Notes under the pieces: model-generated
What the model was told of the DNA's origin: nothing
What the model saw: only the letters and a program-made list of their open reading frames with translations
Database searches by the model: none
Source: an uncultured Planctomycetia bacterium
Lineage (GTDB): Bacteria > Omnitrophota > Gorgyraeia > Gorgyraeales > Gorgyraeaceae
Length of the DNA: 33,102 nucleotides
Direction: 5' to 3'
Assembly (NCBI GenBank): GCA_964445715.1
Contig: CAYULJ010000002.1
Location: 1-33,102 of the forward strand
Part shown: positions 3,361 through 30,603 of the stretch, piece by piece
Layout of the letters: every line of letters begins with the position of its first letter
How positions within the stretch are numbered: the first letter of the stretch is position 1
Position numbers and translations under genes: made by a program

Positions 3361-3401
3361 CTTAAGTTTACACTTTAACATTGTTAAAGTGTAAACTTAA
3401 G
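3361..3401. repeat. 41-bp dispersed palindrome, copy 1
   Basis: CTTAAGTTTACACTTTAACA-T-TGTTAAAGTGTAAACTTAAG, perfect; 4 nt from the stop at 3406. Confidence 0.95.
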
Positions 3402-9189: not shown

Positions 9190-9840
9190 TTATTGCTTGG
9201 CGGAGGATTTATTGGCGGAGGACTTGCCTTCCGAAGTATAAAAACCAGGGTAAAATTCCTTGTAAAGCAGCTTGCTAAATCTGGGCCTATCTTTATCACC
9301 GAGTTCAACTATTTTAATGCCGGCTTCTAAACCACTGTCTTCATCTCGTTTCTTGACCCAGCAGATGCGGCCAACCATTGTAATGGGGCTATAAGGTTCA
9401 TCAGGATCACTTATTGCAAACTCGAGCACCTCGCCTACTTTCCTGTATTCTTTTAACTCTATCCTGAACCCACCTTCGCATATATCTGATGCCGAACCTT
9501 CTTTGTACCTTTCATCTGACGATCCCTTGCGCCAAGAAAGCGTCACTTCTTTTTTAAATCTAGGATACATCCTCTGTTCTTTTTTTATTCTCAATTTCAC
9601 AAGTACCCTATTTTTTAACTCTTCAGCGTTGTATAGACCATCTCCCTTTATCTTTATCTCCTTCATTACGCTGATAAAGGCACAGATGATCTTATTGTTA
9701 GTCAGGCGTTTTCCTGTAGTGAATAAGGCATCCCTACCTATATTGTCTATGAATTCAAGCTCTTCGCGGGTGAGATTTACCACTACGCGGCCAGCCTTTA
9801 ATCCTCTATTAATATTATTGTTAATAGCCTTTTCTTCCAT
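9190..9840 (-). CDS. PilZ-domain protein with an N-terminal possible ribbon-helix-helix domain
   Basis: QRMYPRF (RxxxR) and DICEGGF (D-x-S/C-x-x-G) PilZ motifs; N-terminal domain call is inference. Confidence 0.8.
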   Translation of the reverse strand: MEEKAINNNINRGLKAGRVVVNLTREELEFIDNIGRDALFTTGKRLTNNKIICAFISVMKEIKIKGDGLYNAEELKNRVLVKLRIKKEQRMYPRFKKEVTLSWRKGSSDERYKEGSASDICEGGFRIELKEYRKVGEVLEFAISDPDEPYSPITMVGRICWVKKRDEDSGLEAGIKIVELGDKDRPRFSKLLYKEFYPGFYTSEGKSSANKSSAKQ

Positions 9841-9920: not shown

Positions 9921-10010
9921 TCTACGGTAGCTGGTCGGCCTTGCCCGCCTTTGGTGGATTTAGGCACCTAGCTTTGCGCCTCATCTTTTCAGATGATTTG
10001 CCCTTTTACG
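9921..10010 (-). ncRNA. c-di-GMP-I (GEMM) riboswitch
   Basis: GGGCAAATCATCT-GAAA-AGATGAGGCGCAAAGCT...CCTAA...CAGCTACCG matches the class-I consensus; lies upstream of the PilZ gene. Confidence 0.9.
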
Positions 10011-10039
10011 GAGCATTTATCAATTTGTCTTCTACTATA

Positions 10040-15721: not shown

Positions 15722-15762
15722 TTTAAGTTTACACTTTAACATTGTTAAAGTGTAAACTTAAG
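15722..15762. repeat. 41-bp palindrome, copy 7
   Basis: TTTAAGTTTACACTTTAACA-T-TGTTAAAGTGTAAACTTAAG; ends just before the SD of the DUF885 gene. Confidence 0.95.
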
Positions 15763-15871
15763 CGCCTACGTTATACGGTTATATCGTCCAATGGATTTTA
15801 AAACTTGTGAGGTGATGATATTAAAAGGTAAGTACGTTCTCAATTTGCGTCTTTACTGCTTTTTTGCTCTC

Positions 15872-25201: not shown

Positions 25202-26263
25202 TTAAAACCTCCACGTCAGTCCGGTCTGTAAACTTACATCCGGGCTCGAAGCAGCACTTATATTTTCCGTGATACCAAAATGACAAGATATATCGCTCCT
25301 CTCCTTCCATGTATAATTAAATGCTATGCCAAAATCATGGCTATCATTATCTAAGGGATTAGTCTCGCTATGTGGATAAGGAGTGGTGTTTCCTGTGACC
25401 TGAGTCACTATAGAGAACCTTTTCGTAAAACAATATTCTAATGCCAGAAGATACGAATAGACATGCTCGCCTATGCCCAACTCATCAAAAACTTTAGGCT
25501 TTTCTATGGCAACAATATTAGCACCCCCGTAGAGAAAAAGCCTATCAAAAAAACCTTTATCCACCAAGACGCCAAAACCGTAATCAAATTCCCCGCTGCC
25601 GAGCATGTCATCTTCATTTGCTGTTGGAAATTTAACAGACGATCTTAAAGAAAAATTAGGCCAGAACCAGCCACTGTCTCGCAGCAATTGATATTTTGCA
25701 TTAAGCATGACATCGCCGATGCCTTCTACGGATTTATTCATGGAAATCACATTCCTATTATTATATATAAAAGAATAATCAAATTCGTTCGACCCCTGTC
25801 TTTCCCTTGATCGAGGCGTCCTGGCTCCGACCCCATCCTCAAAACCCTCTATAACATCATCTAAGTAACCGCTAGAAAAACTTGTATAGGGTACTTCTAA
25901 GCCTATTTCGAGATTATCGTAAAGCCCATACCTAAAATCAAGAGTCACAGTAGAGACTTCAAGATCTATGTCTATCTGGTAAAGTGATGAGGCAGGAGTA
26001 AAGGCGCTTACAGTGATATTCGAGACTGTGTAGTTTGCATTTGTCGTAAATTTGTTACGCTCTCTGACTGATGCCTTATCCGGGACCATCTGCAGATAGA
26101 TCAGGTGCAAAGGCATTTGATTTCTTATTCTCAAAGGGCCGCCATTATTATACTCACTTTCTTCATCCCAATCATCCGCAAACGCAAAACTATTAGTAAA
26201 AATAAAAAATGATACCGTGAGAAACGATAAAAACACCAAGATGCCAAAACTTTTTTTCTTCAT
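25202..26263 (-). CDS. DUF3187-like outer-membrane beta-barrel protein
   Basis: Signal peptide, GPLRIRNQMP, GYLDDVIEGF, KFPTA...GSG and C-terminal WRF. Confidence 0.7.
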   Translation of the reverse strand: MKKKSFGILVFLSFLTVSFFIFTNSFAFADDWDEESEYNNGGPLRIRNQMPLHLIYLQMVPDKASVRERNKFTTNANYTVSNITVSAFTPASSLYQIDIDLEVSTVTLDFRYGLYDNLEIGLEVPYTSFSSGYLDDVIEGFEDGVGARTPRSRERQGSNEFDYSFIYNNRNVISMNKSVEGIGDVMLNAKYQLLRDSGWFWPNFSLRSSVKFPTANEDDMLGSGEFDYGFGVLVDKGFFDRLFLYGGANIVAIEKPKVFDELGIGEHVYSYLLALEYCFTKRFSIVTQVTGNTTPYPHSETNPLDNDSHDFGIAFNYTWKERSDISCHFGITENISAASSPDVSLQTGLTWRF

Positions 26264-26299
26264 TCATGTCCTCCCAGCCTCTAATATTTTCAACACCAT

Positions 26300-26440
26300 C
26301 TTAAGTTTACACTTTAACAATGTTAAAGTGTAAACTTAAGCACCGTGCCCGCAAAAAATAAAACGGAGCGAGGCCCACATTTTCAAAAAACTAACACTGG
26401 CCGAGCGTCTTTTTGAAGCTTGCTCTGGCTGTCGAAAACT
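26300..26440. repeat. Composite repeat: palindrome copy 12 (26300..26340) + chimeric arm
   Basis: Perfect core followed by CACCGTGCCCGCAAAAAATAAAACGGAGCGAGGCC...GCGTCTTTTTGAAGC, modules shared with 28227..28411. Confidence 0.9.
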
Positions 26441-26460
26441 AACACTCCTCCTAACATGAC

Positions 26461-26489
26461 TTGAAAACACTCCAATTTTATGGTAAACT
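26461..26489 (+). promoter_or_regulatory. Sigma70-type promoter for the plus-strand riboswitch
   Basis: TTGAAA-17-TAAACT with TG extension, just upstream of the aptamer. Confidence 0.65.
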
Positions 26490-26495
26490 TGTAAT

Positions 26496-26633
26496 AGCCG
26501 ATAAGGGCAAACCCTAGAGAAATCAGGGGGCGCAAAGCCAACAGACCTAAGTTACTAGTGATAAGCCGTAACTCATTGCAAATAAAAGAGTTAGTTAGGC
26601 AATCAATAGTAATATGGTGGCTGGGTTACCGAG
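26496..26633 (+). ncRNA. c-di-GMP-I riboswitch with a long stem extension, antisense to the GGDEF gene
   Basis: GGGCAAACCCTAGA-GAAA-TCAGGGGGCGCAAAGCC...GACCTAA-[~60-nt stem]-ATGGTGGCTGGGTTACCGA matches the class-I consensus. Confidence 0.85.
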
Positions 26634-26639
26634 CGATGA

Positions 26640-26677
26640 AAAGCCGACGCTACTGGCCTTTATCGGCTTTCTTTATT
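26640..26677 (+). terminator. Putative terminator hairpin after the riboswitch
   Basis: AAAGCCGA-N15-TCGGCTTT followed by CTTTATT; overlaps the GGDEF stop codon. Confidence 0.5.
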
Positions 26678-28113
26678 ACCCTCTTATATATCTCGTTAAA
26701 CTCACTCTCAAGAACAAAAAACGGCGCAACATTACATCCAGTAAAATTCTTTATTTCGTTTATAGCCTCGATATCCTTGGGATTTAGCATAACAACGCTT
26801 ATCACGTTCTTTTCCTGATTAATCGGAATAATATTGCGCTCCTTGATAAGCCTTGCCGGTATATTCTTTGCGTAGCCCTCTAATTTTTCATCTTTATCTA
26901 AAGACCTTATATCATAATGCGGTATATTAAGTTGTGATTCCAATGCCCTCACTATATCTCCCGAAGAAGCATAACCAAGATCAATGATGCTTTGGCCTAT
27001 TCTCTGGCCTGTACTCCAATGTTTATCCAAAGCCATCTCGAGTTGATGAATATCTAAGATCTGGGACTCCAAAAGGATCTGCCCTAAAGGCCTATAGTTA
27101 AACTTTATCTCTGCTGTAAATTCTTTTCGGACAGATTTGCCAGGCGATTCTTCTATAGGGATAAATTCTTTTTTTACTTGCTTCCTCCGATTGACTAAAA
27201 AATTGCTACCAGGAAGAGTCTTCAAGTGACGCTTTATCTCTGTTATTATTTCCATTAGCTCAACGATGTTCTGTAATTTGAATTCGCTGTTGTTTGCTAT
27301 TGCTACCGAGACACTCATAAGCGGCATCTCTACTACGTTTCCCCTGCGATCCTTGGCTACAATATGACCCCTATCCCTGTCATCCGCGCTGTAATGAAAA
27401 GAGGTCAGTCTGCTAAAATCCAGTATTGATTCAGAGGCTATCAATCTCTCTCGCTTAGGCGTAGTGACTACGACAAAATCATCGCCGCCTATGTGTCCGA
27501 CAAAATCACTTTTATTTCCATGTTTCTTTACAGTATTTGATATGATATAAGCTGTGTGCCTTATTACGCTATCCCCTTTTCTGTATCCGTATTTATCGTT
27601 GAAACATTTAAAATTATCAATGTCATAATACGCCACTGAAAAGATCGCGCCTTCCTCGATCTTTGCCTGAATGATCTTTTCTATCTGGCGATTCCCGGGA
27701 AGCCTTGTCAGCGCGTTTGCGTGGAGCTGATGCGTTATGCGGCGCAATGCCATCTCCATCCTCACTTCTAGATCAATAGGGTCAGGCGGATTTACGATAT
27801 AATCATCCACGCCCTGCTCTAGCTCGAGCATCTTCTTTCTGATCCGCTTCTTGTCTATAAGGATTACTACGGGGATATGAGCGGTGAGAAAGTCTTCCTT
27901 GAGGGCTTTGGAAAGCTGCAACCCGTCCATTTCCGGCAGGTTAAAATCGACGATTATTATATCTGGCTGCTCGCGTCTTACTGTCCCAAGGACTGACAAC
28001 CCATCCGTTGCAGTGACGACTTCGTAATCCCATGCCTTCAACAGATACGTCAATATATCTACGATATTCTTGTCGTGCTCGGCTAATAATACCTTTCTAT
28101 TTCTCGTTGCCAT
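26650..28113 (-). CDS. Response regulator-GGDEF-MshEN fusion (putative diguanylate cyclase)
   Basis: REC (PDIIIVDFNLPEMDG), DIDNFKCFNDKYG, GHIGGDDF, then RPLGQILL...RIGQSIIDLG MshEN repeats. Confidence 0.88.
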   Translation of the reverse strand: MATRNRKVLLAEHDKNIVDILTYLLKAWDYEVVTATDGLSVLGTVRREQPDIIIVDFNLPEMDGLQLSKALKEDFLTAHIPVVILIDKKRIRKKMLELEQGVDDYIVNPPDPIDLEVRMEMALRRITHQLHANALTRLPGNRQIEKIIQAKIEEGAIFSVAYYDIDNFKCFNDKYGYRKGDSVIRHTAYIISNTVKKHGNKSDFVGHIGGDDFVVVTTPKRERLIASESILDFSRLTSFHYSADDRDRGHIVAKDRRGNVVEMPLMSVSVAIANNSEFKLQNIVELMEIITEIKRHLKTLPGSNFLVNRRKQVKKEFIPIEESPGKSVRKEFTAEIKFNYRPLGQILLESQILDIHQLEMALDKHWSTGQRIGQSIIDLGYASSGDIVRALESQLNIPHYDIRSLDKDEKLEGYAKNIPARLIKERNIIPINQEKNVISVVMLNPKDIEAINEIKNFTGCNVAPFFVLESEFNEIYKRVIKKADKGQ

Positions 28114-28226: not shown

Positions 28227-28411
28227 TTGTCTTTCCAACCTGAGCAGTGCTTCAAAAAGCCTCTTTATTTTTTGCGGGCATGGTGCTTAAGTTTACACTT
28301 TAACAATGTTAAAGTGTAAACTTAAGCGAGCAAAAAATAAAACGGAGCGAAGGCCGCCTCGCTGGGGCGGACAAGCGTCTTTTTGAAGCACTGCTCAGGT
28401 TGGAAAGACAA
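28227..28411. mobile_element. 185-bp MITE/REPIN-like nested inverted-repeat element containing palindrome copy 13 (28286..28326)
   Basis: Perfect 33-bp terminal IR (28227..28259 / 28379..28411), inner 12-bp IR (28264..28275 / 28330..28341), central 41-bp palindrome; mobility is inferred. Confidence 0.7.
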
Positions 28412-28454
28412 AAGTATAGTTGCAAGGAAAGTATATTCTGCTATAATGGATGTT

Positions 28455-29153
28455 ATGAAACTTTCGATTTTGATTCCCGCGTACAATGAAGAGCGTTTTA
28501 TACAAGAGATAATGTCAGAAATAAAATCTCTCGATCTTTCGCGCCTGGGGATACCGGAAAAAGAGGTCATCCTTATAAACGACGGCTCTACTGATAGGAC
28601 AGTAGAAAAAGCCTCGAATGTCATTCCGAATATAAAAATCATACACCACATAAAAAACCAAGGCAAAGGCGCAGCGCTTACATCAGGCATCCCCCACGCC
28701 ACCGGCGACATAATAATAATACAGGACGCGGACCTGGAATACAGACCATCTTTATATCCCGAGCTTTTAAAACCGATTGTCGAAGGAGGAGCCGATATCG
28801 TATACGGGTCCAGATTCTTGGAGAAGCCTCATCCAGAAAACATGAGGATGTCGTATTTTCTAGCTAACCGCTTTGGGACGTTTTTAGTAAACATTCTGAA
28901 CAGTATACATCTTACTGACCCTATGACATGTTTTAAGGTCTTTAGAAAAAAGACATTGGAAGGCATAAAGCTTACCTGCAAAGGCTTTGGAACTGATGCG
29001 GAGCTTACTGCGAAAGTCACCAAGAAAGGTTTTAAGATAAAAGAAGTGGCTGTGCCTTACAAGGCAAGGACTTTCAAGGAAGGAAAAAAATTTCACCCTC
29101 TTTGTTCTCTTAATGTACTCTGGTCTATAATAAAGTACTCACTCCGAGGCTAA
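28455..29153 (+). CDS. Glycosyltransferase family 2 (DPM1-like)
   Basis: [33 protein letters not shown] and VYGSRF motifs; the track start at 28383 lies in the repeat. Confidence 0.92.
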
Positions 29154-30562: not shown

Positions 30563-30603
30563 CCTAAGTTTACACTTTAACAATGTTAAAGTGTAAACTT
30601 AGG
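30563..30603. repeat. 41-bp palindrome, copy 14
   Basis: CCTAAGTTTACACTTTAACA-A-TGTTAAAGTGTAAACTTAGG, perfect. Confidence 0.95.

What the first reader, a model, noticed from the sequence alone, without database searches (positions are those of the whole stretch)
26461..26677. c-di-GMP-I riboswitch transcribed antisense into a diguanylate-cyclase gene
Seen: plus-strand promoter TTGAAA-17-TAAACT, a class-I aptamer, and a terminator-like hairpin overlapping the stop codon of the minus-strand REC-GGDEF-MshEN gene. No credible plus-strand CDS follows until 28455. The aptamer 5' end AGCCGATAAGGGC (26496..26508) can pair with GCCTTTATCGGCT (26656..26668), the 3' arm of that hairpin, giving a mutually exclusive fold. 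Established: riboswitch-controlled antisense RNAs exist for the S-box and B12 classes. Inference: c-di-GMP gates an antisense transcript against the gene for its own synthase (feedback of unknown sign), or the RNA is a stand-alone c-di-GMP sponge.
Basis: partly seen in the sequence, partly recalled or inferred. Interest (0 to 1): 0.85.

Follow-up and report, generated by a model that had tools for sequence, protein, structure and literature searches.

The report
Stand-alone c-di-GMP riboswitch RNA gene
A c-di-GMP-sensing RNA with its own promoter and terminator sits backwards at the end of a signalling gene, and the same RNA recurs in many other gene neighbourhoods across a class of small-genome uncultured bacteria, so it looks like an independent small RNA rather than a switch for a neighbouring gene.

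Summary
There is a c-di-GMP-I aptamer at 26496..26633 (+) scoring 58.9 bits (cut-off 35). It has a near-consensus promoter. A hairpin plus T-run straddles the stop codon of the convergent REC-GGDDF-MshEN gene. A 13-bp pairing joins the leader (26496-26508) to 26656-26668, and no conserved plus-strand ORF follows.

The module is kept in 33 of 38 genomes of the family. The leader signature also occurs in 168 of 401 sampled genomes of the class, at unrelated loci. There it is again closed by a leader:3'-strand helix that covaries, and it usually ends in its own terminator(s). The neighbouring genes are unrelated: the next ORF is sense in 30 copies, antisense in 14 and absent in 3.

Both alternative folds in the window (closing helix, or proximal P1 plus local hairpin) place a helix against the T-run. 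Ligand-gated antisense read-through is therefore not what the anatomy suggests.

Best reading (0.6): a self-contained, constitutively terminated c-di-GMP-binding small RNA whose conformation, not its length, is switched. In this family it lies antisense in an operon junction. The gene's "synthase" status is unproven, because its motif is an invariant GGDDF. No expression data could be obtained.

The parts
26461..26489 (+). Promoter: -35 TTGAAA, 17-nt spacer, TG-extended -10 TAAACT. The predicted start lies about 26494-26497.
   Evidence: 9/12 matches, TG before the -10. Conserved in family alignment A1 and in the 32 copies.
26496..26508 (+). S1: leader AGCCGAUAAGGGC, the 5' strand of the closing helix. 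It overlaps aptamer model positions 1-13.
   Evidence: Invariant apart from G/A at position 10 in 31 family copies. The signature is found in 168/401 class genomes.
26496..26633 (+). c-di-GMP-I aptamer (P2 with GAAA loop; P3)
   Evidence: RF01051, 58.9 bits. P3 shows two-sided compensatory changes.
26557..26608 (+). 52-nt insertion extending P3 as a long hairpin
   Evidence: insert of 52 in the P3 loop. Present in 26 of 31 family copies, with covariation.
26630..26634 (+). S2: proximal strand CGAGC, able to pair with leader GCCG (26497-26500) around a bulged A26632. Candidate P1 of the ligand-bound form.
   Evidence: 96% of cells paired in A2. Duplex only -4.1 kcal/mol. The likeness to the Vc2 P1 is recalled.
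26639..26647 (+). S3: AAAAGCCGA, the 5' arm of the local hairpin T
   Evidence: 93.2% paired. The U.G variants in G007 and G024 pair only on the plus strand.
26656..26668 (+). S4: GCCUUUAUCGGCU. It pairs with S1 (closing helix) or, through UCGGCU, with S3. On the minus strand it encodes the tail ADKG.
   Evidence: It stays invariant where it is not translated as ADKG (G007, G013, G022). It covaries with the leader across the class.
26668..26677 (+). T-run TTTCTTTATT directly after both alternative helices
   Evidence: median 7 T in the 9 nt after S4, over 32 family copies.
26650..28113 (-). Convergent gene: REC + GGDEF-like (GGDDF) + MshEN, 487 aa. Its last 6 codons overlap S4 and the T-run.
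25202..26263 (-). DUF3187 gene, the next gene on the minus strand. In most relatives its SD and start codon lie 1-27 nt from the riboswitch -35.
   Evidence: The junction is 17-19 nt where the module is absent.

Best explanation
The element is a self-contained small-RNA gene: promoter, then an RNA of about 175-185 nt starting at the leader, then a terminator. Its body is a c-di-GMP-I aptamer. Its 5' end (S1) and a 3' strand (S4) form a 12-13-bp closing helix that also covers aptamer core nucleotides. Without ligand the RNA takes this closed form. With c-di-GMP the leader is drawn into the aptamer (proximal P1 plus binding pocket), and in this family S4 re-pairs with S3 into a local hairpin. 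Both forms end in a helix followed by the T-run, so the transcript should stop at about 26672-26680 either way (inferred). The ligand would then change the RNA's conformation and the strands it exposes, not its length. The RNA would act as a c-di-GMP binder or buffer, or as a ligand-gated regulator working through the unmasked strands. It is an orthologous RNA found in many families of the class. In this family it sits antisense in the REC-GGDDF-MshEN | DUF3187 junction and shares a two-way terminator hairpin with the REC gene.
For: The aptamer is real, and it is the only one of 7 in the genome without a sense ORF 11-116 nt downstream. The promoter, leader, S3, S4 and T-run are nearly invariant in 31-32 family copies, while the orthologous proteins are only 64-89% identical. 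S4 is constrained as nucleic acid: it stays invariant in G007 and G013, where the CDS ends before it, and in G022, where the frame differs. Energies: closed form -61.5 (MFE); with P2+P3 enforced the leader:S4 helix is still best at -53.2; P1+T gives -45.4; T alone gives -10.1. Over the family, T has a median of -10.1, S1:S4 a median of -21.7, and the T-run a median of 7 of 9. The leader signature is found in 168 of 401 class genomes, against rare matches of the reversed-pattern control. Among 62 assessable non-family copies, the leader:downstream duplex is <= -16 kcal/mol in 33 and <= -13 in 47. Shuffled leaders reach those levels in 2.9% and 15.8% of trials, and the six ordinary aptamers of this genome reach only -5.1 to -9.7. 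Pair types covary at leader positions 3 (CG 36, UG 3, UA 1), 10 (AU 23, GU 5, GC 10), 7, 6 and 11. Of the 47 copies with the helix, 24 have a U-run at S4, 27 have a canonical terminator within 200 nt, and 42 have at least one of these. The next ORF is sense in 30, antisense in 14 and absent in 3. The sense neighbours are unrelated: clusters of 6, 3, 3, 3 and 2 plus 13 singletons, including CorA, GH1, IlvD, M48 and cyclophilin. In several copies a fresh promoter follows the terminators (sequences, read by eye).
Against: There are no expression data: no RNA run was listed. The start, the end and the abundance of the RNA are therefore all inferred. One search's terminator scan does not list hairpin T, and T's 15-nt loop is unusual. 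That a long-range helix terminates as well as a local one is my inference, not a result. Within the family, P1, T and S1:S4 show no two-sided covariation because they are too conserved. Twenty-three of the 47 non-family copies lack a U-run right after S4, so the helix is not always a terminator stem. Thirty of 47 have a sense ORF downstream, so cis-regulation is not excluded there. Only 38 of 59 scanned non-family loci reach an Rfam gathering score at or near the leader, and many of those score best with the variant model RF03167, whose ligand I cannot state. The non-family loci were picked by the leader pattern, so nothing is known about genomes that lack it. The strict retention at the REC 3' end in 33 of 38 family genomes would also fit a local cis-antisense role.
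Confidence: 0.6

Rival explanations
1. Riboswitch-gated antisense RNA. c-di-GMP decides whether the plus-strand transcript stops at the T-run or runs antisense through the REC-GGDDF-MshEN gene and lowers its expression.
For: The convergent layout is conserved in 19 of 21 orthologue loci. Two mutually exclusive folds exist. T is a weaker hairpin (-10.1, 15-nt loop) than S1:S4 (-21.7), so termination efficiency could differ between the two states. Antisense-oriented c-di-GMP riboswitches are reported as over-represented: 152 cases in PMC9943018 (passages read).
Against: Both folds use the same 3' strand directly before the T-run, and neither frees it as an anti-terminator would. The same RNA occurs away from any REC homologue across the class. 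Two family genomes deleted the module and kept the gene.
Confidence: 0.12
2. A family-specific cis-antisense role after transcription. The short RNA pairs with the 3' end of the REC mRNA, or with REC-to-DUF3187 read-through RNA, and the ligand state decides which complementary strand is exposed (29-nt linker, or 15-nt hairpin loop). This would alter processing or stability at the operon junction.
For: The module lies inside what looks like an operon junction. Stop-to-ATG distance is 17-19 nt where it is absent. The next gene's SD lies 1-27 nt from the riboswitch -35 in about 24 of 32 copies. Twenty of 31 copies have no minus-strand promoter-like site in the module. It is retained in 33 of 38 family genomes while flanking genes vary.
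Against: The idea is purely inferential. The location could simply be inherited, since the RNA and the gene share a terminator. In other families the RNA has other neighbours.
Confidence: 0.15
3. An ordinary cis-acting riboswitch. Elsewhere in the class it controls whatever sense gene lies downstream, and the family's copy is an orphan left by rearrangement.
For: Thirty of 47 non-family copies have a sense ORF next. Some neighbours are plausible c-di-GMP targets, such as a pseudopilin and a cNMP-binding ParA-like protein.
Against: Most neighbours are unrelated housekeeping genes, and 14 of 47 copies are convergent. Double terminators followed by new promoters separate the RNA from the next gene in several copies. 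An orphan would not keep its promoter, aptamer and platform invariant across 17 genera.
Confidence: 0.08

Closest known systems
c-di-GMP-I (GEMM-I) riboswitch, Rfam RF01051
   Same: Full-length covariance-model match (58.9 bits), GAAA-capped P2, P3 with compensatory changes, and consensus nucleotides at the positions I recall as ligand contacts.
   Different: It is not in the 5' leader of a gene. The leader is invariant and pairs with a distal 3' strand that also covers aptamer core positions 6-13. There are large lineage-specific insertions. Many orthologues score best with the variant model RF03167.
merRNA of Bdellovibrio bacteriovorus (PMC3627812; passages read)
   Same: A c-di-GMP riboswitch carried on a small RNA with no conserved downstream ORF, proposed to soak up c-di-GMP.
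   Different: merRNA is 445 nt, was found by its massive attack-phase expression, and was reported as not conserved outside Bdellovibrio. Here there are no expression data, but there is conservation across many families and a defined closing helix. Sequence relatedness to merRNA was not tested.
'Antisense-acting' riboswitches: in-silico survey PMC9943018 (passages read); B12/AspocR and S-box/ubiG cases (recalled)
   Same: The riboswitch lies within 500 nt of, and convergent on, the 3' end of a gene. The c-di-GMP family is reported as the one most prone to this layout (152 antisense against 2,554 sense).
   Different: In those models the ligand decides whether antisense transcription proceeds. 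Here both folds abut the T-run, and the RNA is not tied to the gene outside one family. I could not see that paper's supplementary target tables, so I cannot say whether a REC-GGDEF-MshEN target or this lineage is listed there.
Riboswitch-containing sRNAs such as EutX/Rli55 (recalled)
   Same: An aptamer embedded in a non-coding RNA that acts beyond cis control of a downstream ORF.
   Different: There the ligand selects a short or a long isoform. Here, in this family, it is inferred to select between two folds of one length. Some other families do have a second terminator 19-180 nt on, which could give two isoforms.

Membership tests
c-di-GMP-I riboswitch aptamer (RF01051) | Covariance-model score at or above the curated gathering score | tested here: met
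   58.9 bits against 35, model positions 1-87.
c-di-GMP-I riboswitch aptamer (RF01051) | Helices supported by compensatory changes among relatives | tested here: met
   P3 and its extension have 8 pairs with two-sided changes. P2 and P3 are 100% paired in 31 copies.
c-di-GMP-I riboswitch aptamer (RF01051) | Ligand-contact nucleotides (the G before P2, the A after the P2-closing GC, the C in ACCGA). Which positions make contact is recalled from the Vc2 structures. | tested here: met
   The consensus letters are present in the alignment and invariant in A2. Note GGC at 26529-26531 where the model consensus reads GAC.
c-di-GMP-I riboswitch aptamer (RF01051) | Binds c-di-GMP | not testable with these tools
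   Needs in-line probing or ITC.
Cis-regulatory riboswitch (5' leader of the gene it controls) | A sense ORF or operon directly downstream under its expression platform | tested here: not met
   There is no conserved plus-strand ORF. The other six aptamers of the genome do have one.
Riboswitch-gated antisense RNA | Convergent on the target gene | tested here: met
   The aptamer ends 16 nt before the stop codon. Conserved in 19 of 21 loci.
Riboswitch-gated antisense RNA | One ligand state lacks a terminator, so antisense transcription proceeds | tested here: inconclusive
   Both modelled states keep a helix at the T-run. Relative termination efficiency cannot be computed.
Riboswitch-gated antisense RNA | The riboswitch travels with its target gene | tested here: not met
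   Zero of 7 homologue loci outside the family have an aptamer, and the same RNA is found at unrelated loci.
Stand-alone riboswitch sRNA (merRNA-like) | Own promoter and own terminator, with no conserved ORF | tested here: met
   All are sequence predictions.
Stand-alone riboswitch sRNA (merRNA-like) | Expressed as a discrete, abundant RNA | not testable with these tools
   No RNA run was listed.
Diguanylate cyclase (GGDEF domain) - the convergent gene | GG(D/E)EF active-site signature | tested here: not met
   GGDDF in 21 of 21 orthologues and in the paralogue. Pfam matches only profile positions 5-92 of 161.
Diguanylate cyclase (GGDEF domain) - the convergent gene | Catalytic competence | not testable with these tools
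   The DxD, N and D residues align with PleD. PMC8835794 (passages read) reports one active GGDDF enzyme and one inactive one.
MshEN c-di-GMP-binding domain - the convergent gene | Pfam PF05157 above its cut-off | tested here: met
   44.4 bits against 23.1, residues 395-479. The two tandem LGxxL...G motifs are conserved; the motif definition is recalled.

The most novel reading that the evidence does not exclude
An ancient orthologous regulatory RNA of this class of small-genome bacteria, in which a c-di-GMP aptamer works as the sensor of a trans- or cis-acting small RNA. Ligand binding pulls the invariant leader out of the closing helix. That unmasks the invariant 3' strand (CCUUUAU...) and the linker for pairing with other RNAs or a protein, so c-di-GMP is read out by RNA conformation rather than by transcription or translation of a downstream gene.
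Probability: 0.25. Interest if true: 0.85.

Novelty: new variant of a known kind. Interest (0 to 1): 0.7.

Why it matters
Riboswitches are almost always read as cis-controls of the next gene. Here the comparative evidence points to a c-di-GMP aptamer kept for a long time as a gene in its own right. It has a defined self-closing architecture and occurs in many families of a poorly known, uncultured lineage. The record titles of distant homologues name Candidatus Omnitrophota, though the same-genus record is titled Planctomycetia.

If confirmed, it would be a conserved, tractable counterpart to the single-lineage merRNA idea. It could serve as a natural model for how second-messenger levels are buffered or relayed by RNA. 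It also cautions against scoring convergent riboswitches as antisense regulators from layout alone.

Tried and rejected
**Small ORF.** The frame from ATG 26636 (60 aa in the window) is rejected. It stops after 5 codons in many relatives, and the ATG is ATA in G018, G045 and G050. Pfam finds nothing in the longer frame 26558-26818.

**'Excludon' reading.** This would have the transcript run through the REC gene and serve the GT2 gene at 28383-29153. It is rejected. GT2 lies on that strand in 12 loci, but it is missing from L014, L017, L027 and L028, which keep the aptamer, and it is present in L023, which lacks it.

**Hidden minus-strand promoter in the module.** None was found in 20 of 31 copies. 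The other 11 carry only weak sites, 8 of them one shared site lying in the AT-rich stretch before +1.

**Expression data.** The look-up of sequencing runs listed no RNA holder.

**G005 pattern hit.** The hit in G005 (L118) is a chance match inside coding sequence, with no aptamer.

**Flanking repeat.** The ~120-nt repeats on both sides of the riboswitch+REC block are copies of a dispersed REP-like palindrome, with 36 exact copies in the genome. They are not specific to the block.

**Covariation within the family.** P1, T and S1:S4 are too conserved to test. The test only became possible with the class-wide copies.

**Literature.** Searches found no description of this RNA. Supplementary tables of PMC9943018 could not be seen.

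**Not done.** No covariance model of the whole RNA was built, no scan beyond the class was run, there was no comparison with the merRNA sequence, and no structure prediction of the protein was made.

Full report
**Observation.** Rfam's c-di-GMP-I model (RF01051) matches window 26496..26633 on the plus strand over its whole length, at 58.9 bits against a gathering score of 35. A 52-nt insertion sits in the P3 loop. A promoter-like site TTGAAA-17-TAAACT with a TG extension lies at 26461-26489. That puts the likely start at the first bases of the leader. The aptamer ends 16 nt before the stop codon (26650-26652) of a minus-strand gene, 26650..28113. A hairpin runs from AAAAGCCGA (26639-26647) to UCGGCUUU (26663-26670) and encloses that stop codon. 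The run TTTCTTTATT follows it. Folded alone the hairpin gives -10.1 kcal/mol. The leader AGCCGAUAAGGGC (26496-26508) is complementary to GCCUUUAUCGGCU (26656-26668) with one G.U. This pairing is reported by the repeat finder and is the minimum-energy fold. None of 2000 shuffles of the downstream 67 nt reached its energy.

**Surroundings.** The convergent gene encodes a receiver domain, the first half of a GGDEF domain, and an MshEN domain. The next minus-strand gene is a DUF3187 protein (25202..26263), followed by two SPFH genes. The genome holds seven class-I aptamers. The other six each have a sense ORF starting 11-116 nt downstream, and four of those ORFs have Pfam matches. These are a PilZ protein, a DPBB/RlpA-like protein, a GH113 hydrolase and other signal-peptide proteins. 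Only the aptamer under study faces the 3' end of a gene.

**Conservation in the family.** Orthologues of the gene (64-89% identity) exist in the family's genomes. Of 21 orthologue loci with an intact 3' flank, 19 carry an RF01051 hit on the opposite strand just beyond the stop (17 of 19, plus 2). A DNA search of the order found the 230-nt module in 33 of 38 family genomes, counting the window's own. Three of the five misses are genomes 60-75% complete; two of them (G009, G023) were screened for the orthologue and lack it, and G041 was not screened. The other two (G005, G019) have the gene but no aptamer even at E <= 0.1. In those two, the stop codon is followed after 17-19 nt by the SD and ATG of the DUF3187 gene, which looks like an operon junction. 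In most copies that carry the module, the SD of the next minus-strand gene lies 1-27 nt from the riboswitch's -35. Twenty of 31 copies have no minus-strand promoter-like site inside the module. The RNA gene therefore sits antisense inside what is probably an operon junction; this is an inference. Flanking genes vary. GT2 is absent beyond the REC gene in four loci that keep the aptamer, and DUF3187 is absent in G008.

**Anatomy.** Across 31-32 family copies the promoter hexamers, the leader, the aptamer core and the stretch CGAUGAAAAGCCGACGCUA-nnn-GCCUUUAUCGGC plus T-run are nearly invariant. Four strands matter:
- S1: the leader.
- S2: CGAGC at 26630-26634. It can pair with leader GCCG around a bulged A, which I recall resembles the P1 of the Vc2 aptamer.
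- S3: AAAAGCCGA.
- S4: GCCUUUAUCGGCU.

Two folds exclude each other. One is S1:S4, a closing helix that also covers aptamer model positions 6-13. The other is S1:S2 together with S3:S4. Computed energies are -61.5 for the closed form and -45.4 for P1+P2+P3+T. With only P2 and P3 enforced, an 11-bp S1:S4 helix is still preferred (-53.2). In the family alignment the three helices are 96%, 93% and 97% paired, but they are too conserved to covary. Covariation is seen in P3 and its extension. The few changes are wobbles that pair only in the plus-strand RNA. These are G.U at leader position 10 in most copies, GGU in G020, G022 and G042, and GCUGA in G007 and G024. G010 is one exception. G044 turns the G.U into G-C.

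S4 is constrained as nucleic acid rather than as codons. It encodes the tail ADKG in 16 of 21 orthologues. It is equally invariant in G007 and G013, where the CDS stops before it, and in G022, where the frame differs.

**The key point for mechanism.** Both folds use the same 3' strand immediately before the T-run. An anti-terminator normally captures the terminator's 5' arm and leaves the 3' arm free. Here the alternative to hairpin T is a longer helix ending at the same place. I therefore infer that transcription stops at about 26672-26680 in either state, and that the ligand selects the conformer rather than the length. This step is inferred, not shown.

**Beyond the family.** A 17-nt pattern for the leader and aptamer start (one mismatch allowed) matched 168 of 401 sampled genomes of the class. 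Most have one copy each, in many families, while the reversed-pattern control matched rarely. I fetched 66 such loci outside the family, and 62 were assessable.
- The leader's best partner within 60-560 nt downstream reaches <= -16 kcal/mol in 33 and <= -13 in 47. Shuffled leaders reach those levels in 2.9% and 15.8% of trials.
- The six ordinary aptamers of this genome reach only -5.1 to -9.7.
- Over 40 distinct leader/partner combinations the pairs covary: position 3 CG 36, UG 3, UA 1; position 10 AU 23, GU 5, GC 10; position 7 UA 30, UG 10; and single double-changes at positions 6 and 11.
- Rfam gathering-level hits (RF01051 or the variant RF03167) start at or near the leader in 38 of 59 scanned loci.
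- By my tally of those calls against, 27 of the 44 scanned loci that have the closing helix also have such a hit. Several of the rest show large insertions by eye.
- Of the 47 loci with the helix, 24 have a U-run right after it, 27 have a canonical terminator within 200 nt, and 5 have neither. The next ORF of at least 80 aa is sense in 30, antisense in 14 and absent in 3.
- The 30 sense neighbours fall into clusters of 6, 3, 3, 3 and 2 plus 13 singletons.
- Ten of them were scanned against Pfam: CorA, a family-1 glycosidase, a pyridine-nucleotide disulphide oxidoreductase, an M48 peptidase, IlvD, a corrinoid adenosyltransferase, a cyclophilin, a PD-(D/E)XK nuclease, a cNMP-binding ParA-like protein and a pseudopilin.
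- In several copies (L104, L109, L110, L112, L119) the helix and U-run are followed by a second terminator and then a new promoter for the next gene. I read these by eye.
- A local hairpin that engages the 3' half of S4 exists in 23 of 47 copies, often using the aptamer's own GCCGAA tail. The extra S3 strand is thus one lineage's version of a common theme.

The homologues of the REC gene outside the family have no aptamer beside them (0 of 7). Together this shows an orthologous, self-contained RNA gene whose neighbourhood changes. The family's convergent arrangement is one of its locations.

**How it most likely works.**
- Shown: a real class-I aptamer; a conserved promoter-like site; a closing helix supported by covariation; terminator-like ends; variable neighbours.
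- Inferred: the RNA is made as a discrete species of about 180 nt (about 125-135 nt in the five family copies without the P3 insertion).
- Inferred: if c-di-GMP binds while the aptamer is being made, the leader is held in the aptamer and S4 pairs locally. Otherwise S4 captures the leader and occludes the binding core.
- Inferred: the closed form costs about 8 kcal/mol to open. That would weaken the apparent affinity of an aptamer class quoted at about 1 nM (passage in PMC3627812).
- The output could be buffering of c-di-GMP, ligand-dependent exposure of S4 and the linker, or, in this family, pairing with the REC mRNA 3' end or read-through RNA. I cannot separate these.

**The gene.** The motif is GGDDF in all 21 orthologues and in a REC-GGDDF paralogue. 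The I-site reads NKxD. The alignment to PleD covers the DxD, N and D substrate and metal residues but stops after the motif. One paper reports an active GGDDF enzyme and cites an inactive one (PMC8835794, passages read). The MshEN domain is above Pfam's cut-off. 'Its own synthase' is therefore unproven, and the protein may be chiefly a c-di-GMP receptor.

**Literature.**
- An in-silico survey reports that c-di-GMP riboswitches are the family most often found convergent on a gene's 3' end (152 cases; PMC9943018, passages read; supplements not seen).
- merRNA of Bdellovibrio is a c-di-GMP riboswitch sRNA proposed as a sponge (PMC3627812, passages read).
- Searches found no description of this RNA or of c-di-GMP riboswitches in this lineage.

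**Limits.**
- No RNA data were available: none was listed.
- All ends, promoters and terminators are predictions.
- The class-wide loci were chosen by the leader pattern.
- Ligand identity is assumed from the model match. The window RNA reads GGC at 26529-26531 where the model consensus has GAC, and many orthologues score best with RF03167, whose ligand I cannot state.

**Verdict.** The evidence favours a conserved stand-alone c-di-GMP aptamer RNA over a gate for antisense transcription.

Noticed in passing
window 9923-10012 (-) and 9190-9840 (-): A second c-di-GMP-I aptamer (71.6 bits) lies in the leader of a PilZ-domain gene, with a terminator-like hairpin between them. This would be a c-di-GMP riboswitch controlling a c-di-GMP receptor.
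   Followed up: partly
window 26300-26340, 28286-28327, and about ten more intergenic sites in the window (e.g. 3361-3401, 15723-15763, 30565-30601): A perfect 41-nt palindrome (20-nt arms around one base) is dispersed through the genome: 36 exact copies, and 292 occurrences of the arm counting both strands. It behaves like a REP-like intergenic repeat. Longer ~120-nt versions flank the riboswitch+REC block.
   Followed up: partly
window 26264-26460: In this genome only, about 200 nt are inserted between the DUF3187 start and the riboswitch promoter. The same-genus relative has the start about 20 nt from the -35. The insert holds the palindrome, a terminator-like module also found at 28330-28355, and a 12-nt direct repeat AAAACTAACACT at 26387 and 26435.
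   Followed up: partly
window 26557-26608; loci L106, L108, L109, L122, L143-L148: The aptamer tolerates large lineage-specific insertions. A conserved, covarying hairpin of about 45-52 nt sits in P3 in 26 of 31 family copies. In other families, insertions of roughly 100-250 nt often push the Rfam score below threshold.
   Followed up: partly
L099 (G262) and L100 (G213), leader at 1501: The same leader, closing strand and U-run enclose about 100 nt that give no Rfam hit. The aptamer may have been replaced or heavily remodelled within the same closed frame.
   Followed up: no
L103 1871-2008 (+); L110 1194-1328 (-): In two families a second, ordinary RF01051 aptamer lies a few hundred nt downstream of the closed RNA, apparently with its own promoter.
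   Followed up: no
window 26650-28113 (-); G000:C26:5296-6216 (-): REC-GGDDF proteins form a conserved family in this class: one paralogue without MshEN in most genomes searched, at about 40% identity. The non-canonical GGDDF motif is invariant in every copy aligned.
   Followed up: partly
G016 contigs C75 (end) and C100 (end): Two contigs of one relative both end inside the riboswitch module and overlap there, so the assembly breaks at this element.
   Followed up: no
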